A stretch of 18,705 nt of DNA from positions 1 through 18,705 of the IMG/VR virus record IMGVR_UViG_2778261458_000001; one strand, 5' to 3'. The position numbers and the translations under genes are program-made. The notes beneath the pieces are model-generated. The model made no database searches and was not told the DNA's origin. It was given only the letters and a program-made list of their open reading frames with translations. Numbering within the stretch: position 1 is the first letter of the stretch; each line of letters begins with the position of its first letter. Source of the DNA: a virus (Duplodnaviria > Heunggongvirae > Uroviricota > Caudoviricetes). Positions 14,978 to 15,907 of the stretch are shown in pieces.

Positions 14978-14999
14978 TAGCTAACCAACGAGGCTAATA

Positions 15000-15329
15000 A
15001 TGGAATTTAAAGATTTACCAATGCAATTCCAGGAAATGGCAGCGAATATAGTTCGTTCCCAACTGGCGACTCTTGACCTGAGTACCGTAGAAAAAGAAAC
15101 CATCGATACTATATCCGGTAACGTGCGTCGTGCCTTTATCGGTCTGTACGAAGAGAAGCAGCTCTCTGATAACCTGGATTTACATGAAAAATACTTCCTG
15201 GATCTAATGGACATCATTGATAAGGGGTTTGGCTTGTTAATGAAAAAGAAAGGGATTCGAATAGAACCCCTTGAAAATTACCTTGCAACAAAAAGCATTA
15301 ATTCTTTTGATTCAAAACAAGAGAATTAA
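15000..15329 (+). CDS. Hypothetical protein (109 aa), AT-rich, in-operon orientation
   Basis: ATG 15000 preceded by GAGG; predicted all-helical; 3' end overlaps the convergent minus-strand ORF by 32 nt. Confidence 0.5.
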   Translation: MEFKDLPMQFQEMAANIVRSQLATLDLSTVEKETIDTISGNVRRAFIGLYEEKQLSDNLDLHEKYFLDLMDIIDKGFGLLMKKKGIRIEPLENYLATKSINSFDSKQEN

Positions 15330-15573
15330 TTACAGATTTAACATGCTCTTTCTCATGATTGAAGCTCTCATGATTGAAAGTGCCTGGTTGAAGCGAGTCG
15401 ATATAATCAACAAGACTCTGTCGTACGACTTCATTTTTATCCATTACAGATGCAAGAAATGAAATTGCTAAAAGAGTTATATCACTACGCGCCGCAGCAT
15501 GCTGCAATGCTTTATCAAAATTATTAATCTGGCGTATCAGGGAGTTAATGATTTCATCATTTTCAGTCGACAT
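15298..15573 (-). CDS. Hypothetical protein (91 aa), antisense to the dicB operon
   Basis: Internal ATG 15573 of ORF 15298-15942 with strong AGGAGGG SD; MSTENDEIINSLIRQINNFDKALQHAAARSDITLLAISFLASVMDKNEVVRQSLVDYIDSL... The ORF-track N-terminal extension overlaps DicF and looks non-coding. Confidence 0.45.
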   Translation of the reverse strand: MSTENDEIINSLIRQINNFDKALQHAAARSDITLLAISFLASVMDKNEVVRQSLVDYIDSLQPGTFNHESFNHEKEHVKSVINSLVLNQKN

Positions 15574-15907
15574 TTCACCCTCCTGAGGGTTGGTGATTAA
15601 GGAGTTCTCCACGGGTGAGGTGGAGTGCGTGCGCCGGACACGGGTGAGCATCCGGCACTGACAGTTTACTGAAAGGATATTTCCCTGAAAAGTCAGACCA
15701 TAACGCGAAAGCGCACGGCGAGGTAGCTGGTTCATAGATAGCCTGTCGTTAAATTTTCGTCGACCGTGCGCTTCCGGTTGTGGCAATCCGCGAAATGGCG
15801 CGGCGGTAAGTATGGCGGGGTTATTCCTTCCCCGTTGAGGACACCGGGTTGTCAGGTTGACCATACGCTTAAGTGACAACCCCGCTGCAACGCCCTCTGT
15901 TATCAAT

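What the first reader, a model, noticed from the sequence alone, without database searches (positions are those of the whole stretch)
14978..15907. Convergent AT-rich gene pair inside the dicB operon, just upstream of DicF
Between ydfC and DicF lie two overlapping convergent ORFs: 15000-15329 (+, 109 aa) and 15573-15298 (-, 91 aa, strong AGGAGGG SD). Both are AT-richer than the flanking operon and predicted helical. In my recollection of the K-12 operon (ydfA-ydfB-ydfC-dicF-dicB) this interval is a processed leader, so a protein-coding insert with an antisense gene here is unexpected. Antisense transcription would also run into the DicF precursor region, which could affect DicF processing.
Basis: partly seen in the sequence, partly recalled or inferred. 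Interest (0 to 1): 0.6.

Follow-up and report, generated by a model that had tools for sequence, protein, structure and literature searches.

The report
Two-gene accessory cassette upstream of DicF
A 590-base insert in a prophage's cell-division-inhibitor (dicB) operon carries two small, probably real genes of unknown function that face each other; it is one variant of a frequently swapped accessory site, not a disruption of the DicF RNA.

Summary
Window 14998-15587 is a 590-bp, AT-rich (38% GC) block that K-12 Qin lacks. It contains almost nothing except ORF1 (+, 15000-15329, 109 aa) and ORF2 (-, 15573-15298, 91 aa, AGGAGGG Shine-Dalgarno (SD) site).

Both ORFs look like real genes. ORF1 is a full-length member of phage family phrog_6937. 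ORF2 has no homologue outside E. coli-like sequences and is intact in every copy examined. Its dN/dS is 0.31, the lowest of the six frames. It has a 28%-identical relative at the same site and orientation in another cassette type.

The cassette is not unique. It occurs in 198 of 5426 complete E. coli genomes, where RefSeq annotates both genes as hypothetical proteins. The site is a swap hot-spot. ORF1 variants occur alone or with at least six different small minus-strand genes, all sharing the same SD/leader junction.

Relatives of two of those families also sit antisense in the early-left operons of SfII, EPP-1 and 118970_sal3, as sieB does in lambda and Rac. The best reading is two independently assorting accessory genes, with ORF2 a possible prophage-expressed, sieB-slot-type gene.

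Function is unknown and no convincing ORF2 promoter was found. ORF2 is transcribed away from DicF, not into it.

The parts
14998..15587 (.). 590-bp AT-rich accessory cassette absent from K-12 Qin (boundaries +/- 3 nt)
   Evidence: BLAST and alignment to MG1655 join 14997 to 15588. GC is 0.38 against 0.50-0.55 in the flanks. The whole block is present in 198 of 5426 E. coli genomes.
15000..15329 (+). ORF1, 109 aa, helical. Conserved N-terminal ~53 aa plus a variable C-terminal half. Co-directional with the dicB operon. SD GAGG at 14990-14993.
   Evidence: phrog_6937 E=1.4e-67 over its full length; the N-domain alone also matches phrog_1363, 2151 and 9419. 234 homologues, all named hypothetical. 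AF2 gives a helical bundle, pLDDT 65. RefSeq WP_000394533.1.
15298..15573 (-). ORF2, 91 aa, helical, acidic, with no homologue outside E. coli-like sequences. SD AGGAGGG at 15578-15584.
   Evidence: Only relatives of 77-100% identity in 5.8e9 and 1.84e9 protein libraries. dN/dS is 0.31, lowest of six frames. Intact in all 25 distinct contexts, with 11 nt alleles giving 5 protein alleles. 28% identity, E=5e-6, to the minus ORF of L006 (phrog_18692). RefSeq WP_000102679.1.
15574..15604 (-). Shared translation-initiation junction of all minus-strand slot genes (CAT..TCACCCTCCTGAGGGTTGGTRATTAAGGAG on the + strand)
   Evidence: The same junction precedes unrelated minus ORFs of 63, 73, 74, 77, 91 and 92 aa. 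K-12 lacks the TCACCCTCCTGAG part.
15297..15330 (.). 16-nt-arm inverted repeat spanning both stop codons (the 3' overlap of ORF1 and ORF2)
   Evidence: the repeat finder I1, 88% complementary. It folds on both strands. On the minus strand it is followed by GCUUUUUGUUGC; on the plus strand there is no U tract.
15250..15272 (-). Terminator-like hairpin (9 bp) plus UCUUUUUCAU on the minus strand, inside ORF1; candidate 3' end of the ORF2 transcript
   Evidence: Terminator scan. The fold of 15345-15235 (-) is -23.4 kcal/mol, z=-4.2. The hairpin is also present in ORF1 variants without ORF2, so it is not specific evidence.
15663..15691 (-). Best, but weak, sigma-70-like candidate promoter for ORF2 (TTTTCA-17-TAAACT) inside the DicF leader
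   Evidence: PWM score 8.3, against a median best score of 7.8 in shuffles, so not significant. The consensus scan found none in 15574-15950 on the minus strand.
15588..15907 (+). DicF 5' leader, shared with K-12 and nearly invariant
   Evidence: Alignment of the window, K-12, an O157-type locus and E. albertii. Lowest diversity of the downstream segments (that sample was selected through an anchor in the leader).
15909..15958 (+). DicF sRNA, loop variant
   Evidence: RF00039, 43.5 bits, E=6.9e-8, below the 48-bit gathering score.

Best explanation
The interval is a horizontally exchanged accessory ('moron'-type) cassette. It sits in a recombination hot-spot of Qin/PPompW-type lambdoid prophages, between ydfC and the conserved DicF leader. 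It holds two separate genes in two adjacent variable slots.

Slot A is ORF1. It is a small helical early protein of the phrog_6937/1363 family, with a conserved N-terminal ~53 aa and a swappable C-terminal half. It has its own SD and no plus-strand terminator before DicF. It is therefore most likely translated from the DicA-repressed ydfABC-DicF-dicB transcript when the operon is switched on.

Slot B is ORF2. It is one of at least six unrelated 63-92-aa genes that occupy the same antisense position and use the same SD/leader junction. ORF2 is probably transcribed on its own from the minus strand, starting in the DicF leader and ending at the hairpins inside the ORF1 3' region.

By analogy with sieB of lambda and Rac, I infer that ORF2 is made in the prophage state, for example as a superinfection-exclusion or other lysogen-benefit factor. 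I also infer that convergent transcription opposes its expression when the operon is induced.

Shown: the insertion, the coding status of both genes, the slot polymorphism, the shared junction, and the conserved antisense placement of sister families in other phages. Inferred: the separate ORF2 transcript, the timing of its expression and its biological role.
For: Insertion and composition:
- Clean insertion relative to K-12.
- Atypical GC: 0.38 against 0.50-0.55 in the flanks.

Presence/absence and swapping at the site:
- In 101 IMG/VR contigs picked only by a leader anchor, 84 were empty, 6 were this type and 8 were other filled types.
- The ORF1 body of this type occurs with the 91-aa gene (64 loci), with an unrelated 73-aa gene (14) or with no minus gene (23).
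- The distant homologue of ORF2 (92 aa) sits next to an unrelated ORF1 C-terminus.
- All minus genes share the same SD/leader junction. The others are PHROG families 18692, 7249, 10348 and 2605.

ORF2 coding status:
- dN/dS 0.31, lowest of six frames.
- Always intact; length changes come only in 15-nt steps.

Antisense placement elsewhere:
- Relatives of the 63-aa family lie antisense just downstream of the repressor in SfII and Edwardsiella phage EPP-1.
- A relative of the 73-aa family does so in Salmonella phage 118970_sal3.
- sieB is antisense and convergent in lambda (abutting N) and in Rac (overlapping ydaF by 4 nt). The Rac operon flanks are 88% and 81% identical to this one.

Transcript ends:
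- Terminator-like hairpins follow ORF2 on the minus strand only.
Against: - No significant promoter for ORF2 was found. The best candidate is no better than shuffled sequence.
- The upstream leader is equally conserved in the 83% of loci that have no minus gene, so its conservation says nothing about an ORF2 promoter.
- The hairpin at 15250-15272 also exists in ORF1 variants without a minus gene, and the ORF1 coding sequence partly dictates it.
- dN/dS of 0.31 rests on one diverged allele pair (about 40 substitutions).
- ORF2 has no transmembrane segment and no similarity to SieB or to any defence, TA or Pfam family.
- The fold searches return only generic helical bundles from low-confidence models.
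- No expression data were available.
Confidence: 0.55

Rival explanations
1. ORF1 and ORF2 are a cognate interacting pair: a toxin-antitoxin-like module, or a prophage defence protein with its own escape or self-immunity factor (the Esc/SieB or BstA/aba logic). ORF2 would be made in the lysogen and ORF1 made on induction to neutralise it, or the reverse.
For: - ORF2 was never seen without ORF1. The same 198 genomes hold both.
- The 3' ends overlap in every filled cassette type, by 11-41 nt.
- The last codons of ORF1 change with the minus gene.
- Both proteins are small, acidic and helical, as many protein inhibitors are.
Against: - The same ORF1 body occurs with an unrelated 73-aa gene (14 loci) and with no minus gene (23 loci; O157-type).
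- The 92-aa homologue of ORF2 is paired with an ORF1 C-terminus that shows no similarity to this one.
- There is no hit to TA, defence or antitoxin models.
- Co-occurrence follows trivially from position, because slot B lies beside slot A.
Confidence: 0.15
2. The minus-strand unit acts mainly as RNA. An antisense transcript over the ORF1 3' end and/or the DicF leader would modulate the dicB-operon mRNA or DicF maturation (RNase III cleavage of a duplex, or transcriptional interference). The ORF would be incidental or secondary.
For: - The convergent 3' ends overlap in a 16-nt-arm palindrome.
- Any ORF2 promoter must lie in the leader that is processed to give DicF.
- Precedents in the same class of operon include RalA antisense to ralR in Rac.
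Against: - Canonical AGGAGGG SD with correct spacing.
- The ORF is intact in all copies, with in-frame indels only.
- dN/dS is lowest in the ORF2 frame.
- Six unrelated coding sequences share the SD, which points to selection on translated products.
- ORF2 runs away from DicF, so only a short 5' UTR could pair with the leader.
Confidence: 0.1
3. ORF2 is a spurious or decaying ORF, and the right half of the insert is non-functional AT-rich filler carried along with ORF1.
For: - No homologue outside E. coli-like sequences in exhaustive searches.
- No promoter found.
- Third-position enrichment is only modest: 14, 10 and 20 variable sites at codon positions 1, 2 and 3.
- AF2 confidence is low.
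Against: - A 91-codon ATG ORF in 35%-GC sequence is unlikely by chance: 3.9% for any ORF of this size in the whole insert, and 0.02% for one on each strand.
- Strong SD.
- An allele of 80% protein identity keeps the full frame.
- A 28%-identical homologue sits in the same slot and belongs to a PHROG family.
Confidence: 0.1

Closest known systems
sieB of phage lambda and of the Rac prophage (superinfection exclusion B)
   Same: Both are genes embedded antisense in the repressor-controlled early-left operon of a lambdoid prophage, convergent with the gene upstream. Lambda sieB abuts N. Rac sieB overlaps ydaF by 4 nt and lies between the DUF1391 gene and the sRNA/division-inhibitor pair kilS-kilR. 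The Rac flanks are homologous to this operon: ydaF/ydfA 88%, kilS-kilR spacer/DicF-dicB spacer 81%.
   Different: There is no sequence similarity and no Pfam SieB hit. SieB is about 160-185 aa; that it is a membrane protein is from my own knowledge, not tested here. ORF2 is 91 aa with no hydrophobic stretch long enough to span a membrane. The Rac SD and leader are unrelated to the junction used here. Exclusion activity of ORF2 is untested.
Phage 'morons' (extra genes present in some members of a mosaic phage group, with atypical composition and their own expression signals; concept recalled from the lambdoid/HK97 literature)
   Same: Presence/absence polymorphism at a fixed site. Lower GC than the flanks. 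Terminator-like hairpins after ORF2.
   Different: No own promoter could be demonstrated. ORF1 appears to depend on the operon promoter. The slot shares one SD junction among unrelated genes, which is not part of the classic moron description.
PHROG families 6937/1363 (ORF1) and 18692 (ORF2 relative); sister slot families 7249, 10348 and 2605
   Same: ORF1 matches phrog_6937 over its full length. The minus gene of L006 is phrog_18692 (E=5.9e-63), and ORF2 aligns to it end to end.
   Different: All these families are annotated 'unknown function'. ORF2 scores only E=0.018 against phrog_18692.
K-12 Qin dicB operon (ydfA-ydfB-ydfC-dicF-dicB-ydfD)
   Same: Same gene order, same leader (about 92% identity downstream of the insert) and the same DicA/DicC-type immunity region.
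   Different: K-12 has 20 nt where this window has those 20 nt plus the 590-bp cassette. The DicF loop differs, giving 43.5 bits against the Rfam model.

Membership tests
phrog_6937 (ORF1) | Significant full-length match to the family profile | tested here: met
   E=1.4e-67, residues 1-107 on profile positions 1-107 of 124.
phrog_18692 (ORF2) | Significant match to the family profile | tested here: inconclusive
   hmmscan E=0.018 (residues 9-88 on profile 6-89 of 92). Pairwise BLASTP to a bona fide member (L006 minus ORF, E=5.9e-63 to the profile) gives 28% identity, E=5e-6. The member was not recovered by whole-library phmmer.
SieB superinfection exclusion proteins | Sequence membership (Pfam SieB domain) | tested here: not met
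   No Pfam family at E<=1 for the 91-aa or 214-aa versions. No PADLOC or NCBIfam hit above noise.
SieB superinfection exclusion proteins | Antisense, convergent placement inside the early-left operon next to the immunity region | tested here: met
   ORF2 is convergent with ORF1 inside the DicA-controlled operon. The layout matches lambda and Rac.
SieB superinfection exclusion proteins | Expression in the lysogen and exclusion or abortive infection of superinfecting phage | not testable with these tools
   Needs transcriptomics and plaque assays.
Type II toxin-antitoxin module | Recognisable toxin or antitoxin domains | tested here: not met
   No Pfam, NCBIfam or PADLOC match for either protein. 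The best was noise-level: a RelB-like hit at E=0.011 and 15.9 bits against a 50-bit cut-off, and only for the L006 homologue.
Type II toxin-antitoxin module | Obligate co-occurrence of the two partners | tested here: not met
   The ORF1 body occurs with no minus gene (23 loci) or with an unrelated one (14 loci). ORF2 itself was never seen without ORF1.
Phage moron | Present in some and absent from other closely related prophages at the same site | tested here: met
   84 empty against 14 filled sites among 101 anchor-selected contigs. The K-12 site is empty.
Phage moron | Nucleotide composition different from the neighbours | tested here: met
   GC 0.38 against 0.495 and 0.547.
Phage moron | Own promoter and terminator | tested here: inconclusive
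   Terminator-like hairpins lie on the minus strand. No promoter scores above shuffled background.
DicF sRNA (RF00039), neighbouring feature | Score at or above the Rfam gathering threshold | tested here: not met
   43.5 bits against 48. E=6.9e-8, full-length 1-52, with the 5' seed conserved and the loop divergent. By position and flanks it is clearly a DicF homologue.

The most novel reading that the evidence does not exclude
The antisense position just upstream of the DicF leader may be a dedicated exchange slot. A fixed 5' leader and SD would drive whichever small gene is dropped in; at least six unrelated 63-92-aa families have been seen there, including ORF2. These genes would be a so-far unrecognised set of prophage-state effectors, for example exclusion, defence or anti-defence proteins. 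Convergent transcription from the DicA-controlled operon would shut off their synthesis, coupling them to the lysogeny/induction switch. The same arrangement for sister families in SfII, EPP-1 and 118970_sal3 would make this a general design of temperate-phage early-left operons.
Probability: 0.2. Interest if true: 0.6.

Novelty: new member of a known kind. Interest (0 to 1): 0.35.

Why it matters
If ORF2 and its slot-mates are expressed in lysogens, they are candidate new small superinfection-exclusion or defence-related proteins. About 4% of E. coli genomes carry ORF2, and more carry the sister genes. They sit in the operon that also makes DicF and DicB, which are known to affect cell division and phage sensitivity. 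The shared SD/leader junction gives a simple way to list all occupants of the slot.

For annotation, the result settles the start of ORF2. The 91-aa model is right and the 145- and 214-aa calls are not. It also shows that the 'long untranslated region' of the K-12 operon is only one allele of a polymorphic site.

If the genes turn out to be inert passengers, the finding is ordinary phage mosaicism.

Tried and rejected
- **Family searches.** Pfam, NCBIfam and PADLOC scans of both proteins and of the sister proteins gave nothing above noise.
- **PDB sequence search.** Profile searches gave nothing below E=0.19.
- **Exhaustive HMMER for ORF2.** Only close E. coli relatives and fragments were found. 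One hit to a 1168-aa repetitive protein (E=5e-5) I judged spurious.
- **Phage database.** tblastn of ORF2 and of its 92-aa homologue against INPHARED phages gave no match.
- **Link between minus-gene families.** hhalign between the 91/92-aa and 73/74-aa families gave probability 0.6%, so they are unrelated.
- **Promoter for ORF2.** Neither the consensus scan nor a PWM scan gave a significant site.
- **Terminator as a marker of ORF2.** I tested whether the minus-strand terminator hairpin is specific to ORF2-bearing loci. It is not.
- **Mobile-element signatures.** No direct repeats flank the insert. A transposition-type insertion was therefore rejected in favour of recombinational mosaicism.
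- **Literature.** No paper mentions the RefSeq protein accessions or phrog_6937. The supplements of one K-12 TSS study do not mention dicF or ydfC.
- **Genome-contig scan.** It found only two E. albertii loci.

Full report
**What is in the sequence.** Window 13834-16521 is a Qin-like early-left operon. It runs from a DicA-type repressor gene (13834-14241) through ydfA, ydfB and ydfC (ydfC is 14759-14977), then the interval in question, then DicF at 15909-15958 (RF00039, 43.5 bits, below the 48-bit gathering score), dicB (16134-16321) and a ydfD-like gene. A near-identical RefSeq locus (strain CFSAN018748) gives the wider context. It is a lambdoid prophage with DicC/YdaT/replication genes on one side and an exonuclease, integrase and tRNA-Ser on the other.

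- ORF1 is 15000-15329 (+), 109 aa, with GAGG 6 nt before the ATG.
- ORF2 is 15573-15298 (-), 91 aa, with AGGAGGG 4 nt before the ATG.
- Their 3' ends overlap by 32 nt.
- The interval has 38% GC, against 49.5% for ydfA-C and 54.7% for the DicF leader.

In simulated sequence of the same composition, an ORF of at least 91 codons on each strand of a 590-nt block appears in 0.02% of trials.

**Relation to K-12.** BLAST and alignment against MG1655 Qin join window 14997 directly to 15588. The K-12 operon therefore lacks 590 bp that contain almost nothing but the two ORFs and their ribosome-binding sites. [quoted passage not shown] No flanking direct repeats or transposon ends are present.

**How common it is.**
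- The full 590 bp occurs in 198 of 5426 complete E. coli genomes, at 96-100% identity.
- The ORF2 part alone is found in the same 198 genomes and nowhere else.
- RefSeq annotates both genes as hypothetical proteins. ORF2 is called as 91 aa in one strain and as 214 aa in another, and a 145-aa version is common in protein databases.
- About 1360 genomes carry some form of the ORF1 N-terminal coding sequence.

**Are they genes?** ORF1 matches phrog_6937 over its whole length (E=1.4e-67). Its first ~55 residues also match phrog_1363, 2151 and 9419. 234 database homologues, all unnamed, come from Escherichia and a few Salmonella.

ORF2 has no homologue outside E. coli-like sequences. A word-indexed search of 5.8e9 proteins and an exhaustive HMMER pass over 1.84e9 representatives found only relatives of 77-100% identity. 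Even so, several lines indicate that it is coding:
- A diverged allele (80% protein identity) keeps the frame. It gives dN/dS of 0.31, the lowest of the six frames (controls 0.48-1.24).
- All 25 distinct genomic contexts examined have an intact ORF. Length variants differ by one 15-nt repeat unit (86, 91 or 96 aa).
- The minus-strand ORF at the same position in another cassette type (L006, 92 aa, phrog_18692 at E=5.9e-63) is 28% identical to ORF2 end to end (pairwise E=5e-6).

I take the 91-aa start as correct. It carries the strong SD, and the upstream extension lies in the leader that K-12 also has.

**The site is a two-slot hot-spot.** I fetched 101 IMG/VR contigs using only a 24-nt anchor in the DicF leader. 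The results were:
- 84 had the empty, K-12-type site.
- 6 had this cassette.
- 8 had other fillings.
- 3 lacked ydfC.

Almost every filled site has a plus-strand gene beginning MEFKDLP, with a variable C-terminal half (109-201 aa); the one exception, a remnant site (L150), keeps only a C-terminal fragment of it. Every filled site that carries a minus gene has it convergent with the plus gene. The minus genes seen are 63, 73, 74, 77, 91 or 92 aa long.

All minus genes start within about 15 nt of the same junction, CAT..TCACCCTCCTGAGGGTTGGTRATTAAGGAG. They therefore share one SD and one upstream leader although their coding sequences are unrelated. The other minus genes belong to PHROG families 18692, 7249, 10348 and 2605, all of unknown function.

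A cross-tabulation of the loci in hand shows the two slots assort semi-independently:
- The ORF1 body of this window pairs with the 91-aa gene in 64 loci.
- It pairs with the unrelated 73-aa gene in 14 loci.
- It pairs with no minus gene in 23 loci (O157-type).
- The 92-aa homologue of ORF2 sits beside an ORF1 C-terminus with no detectable similarity to this one.

ORF1 is itself mosaic, because its N-terminal sub-segments are exchanged between types.

**Antisense placement is conserved beyond this operon.**
- Relatives of the 63-aa family lie antisense inside the early-left operon, just downstream of the repressor. This holds in Shigella phage SfII and in Edwardsiella phage EPP-1, where the gene overlaps its convergent neighbour by 33 nt.
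- A relative of the 73-aa family does the same in Salmonella phage 118970_sal3.
- The annotated sieB genes of lambda (abutting N) and of Rac (overlapping ydaF by 4 nt, between the DUF1391 gene and kilS-kilR) have the same layout.
- The Rac operon is homologous to this one at both flanks (88% and 81% identity).

**Expression signals.** On the minus strand, ORF2 is followed by two hairpins. The first is the 16-nt-arm palindrome across both stop codons, followed by GCUUUUUGUUGC. The second is a 9-bp GC-containing stem followed by UCUUUUUCAU at 15272-15250. The fold has z=-4.2. On the plus strand no U tract follows the palindrome, and no plus-strand terminator lies between ORF1 and DicF. Read-through to DicF and dicB is therefore expected.

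The second hairpin also exists in ORF1 variants without a minus gene, so it is not specific evidence. No convincing sigma-70 promoter for ORF2 was found. The best candidate (TTTTCA-17-TAAACT, 15691-15663) scores no better than shuffled sequence. This is the weakest point of the model.

**Function.** Nothing informative came from Pfam, NCBIfam, PADLOC, PDB sequence profiles or fold searches. Both proteins are predicted as small helical bundles at low confidence. Both are net acidic, counted directly from the sequences.

My best explanation (confidence 0.55 for the architecture, lower for the role) has two parts:
- ORF1 is an accessory early protein made with the DicA-repressed operon.
- ORF2 is a separately transcribed occupant of a sieB-like antisense slot. 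It is likely made in the prophage state and opposed by convergent transcription on induction.

The rivals are a cognate interacting pair (0.15), a mainly RNA-level antisense role (0.10) and a spurious ORF2 (0.10).

It is right that this is a coding insert relative to K-12 and that the 91-aa model is the good one. It is wrong on direction. ORF2 is read away from DicF, so antisense transcription does not run into the DicF precursor; only its promoter and 5' UTR would overlap the leader. The unexpectedness is also overstated, because this is a common, annotated polymorphism.

**Verdict.** This is a real, uncharacterised accessory cassette of a familiar kind, phage mosaic or moron genes. One feature is worth following up: an antisense slot with a shared SD that hosts many unrelated small genes. 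Interest 0.35.

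Noticed in passing
window 15605-15907: The ~300-nt DicF 5' leader is almost invariant between this window, K-12, an O157-type locus and E. albertii. It is far less variable than the dicB and ydfD coding sequences downstream. This suggests a constrained RNA structure or processing substrate that has no Rfam family.
   Followed up: partly
window 15596-15647: At the start of the leader, a strong SD-like AAGGAG is followed 10 nt later by a GTG-initiated 10-codon mini-ORF (GTG AGG TGG AGT GCG TGC GCC GGA CAC GGG TGA). I read this directly from the sequence and did not test its significance.
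   Followed up: no
window 15909-15958: This DicF copy scores 43.5 bits, below Rfam's 48-bit gathering score, so a default Rfam scan misses it. The 5' seed region is conserved but the hairpin loop differs from K-12. The same variant occurs in the O121 and E. albertii loci (L007, L009).
   Followed up: partly
window 15946-16117 and L213 (Rac): The DicF terminator-to-dicB spacer is 81% identical to the segment of Rac running from the 3' part of kilS to kilR. It also gives a sub-threshold STnc100 hit (25 bits). The two sRNA/division-inhibitor modules therefore share their downstream half although the sRNAs differ.
   Followed up: partly
window 15351-15378: A perfect 13-nt repeat with 15-nt spacing inside ORF2 encodes FNHES/FNHEK. 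Database alleles carry 1, 2 or 3 units (86, 91 or 96 aa), an in-frame copy-number polymorphism.
   Followed up: yes
window 15298-15942 (minus strand): Public annotation of ORF2 is inconsistent. It is 91 aa (WP_000102679.1), 145 aa (a cluster of 481 sequences) or 214 aa (WP_236493894.1). The long forms extend through the conserved DicF leader.
   Followed up: yes
window 8306-8630: A hok/sok type I toxin-antitoxin locus. The sok RNA (RF01794, 110.7 bits) is at 8456-8630 (-), and a mok/hok ORF ending in ...CEVRIRTGQTEVAVFTAYEPEE is at 8306-8518 (-).
   Followed up: partly
window 3591-3837: Two tRNA genes lie on the minus strand inside the prophage late region. The near-identical RefSeq locus annotates them as tRNA-Arg and tRNA-Ile.
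   Followed up: no
L216 (SfII 27994-28185), L217 (EPP-1 25771-25959), L215 (118970_sal3 25151-25567): Small genes related to the alternative slot occupants lie antisense in the early-left operons of unrelated temperate phages, next to the repressor gene. In two of the three cases they overlap the 3' end of the convergent neighbour.
   Followed up: partly
L004 (E. coli EBJ003) 1501-3260: In this prophage the ORF1-type gene directly follows the DUF1391 gene, with no ydfB or ydfC. A Rha-family regulator gene is inserted between it and dicB, which is further evidence of heavy mosaicism at this site.
   Followed up: no
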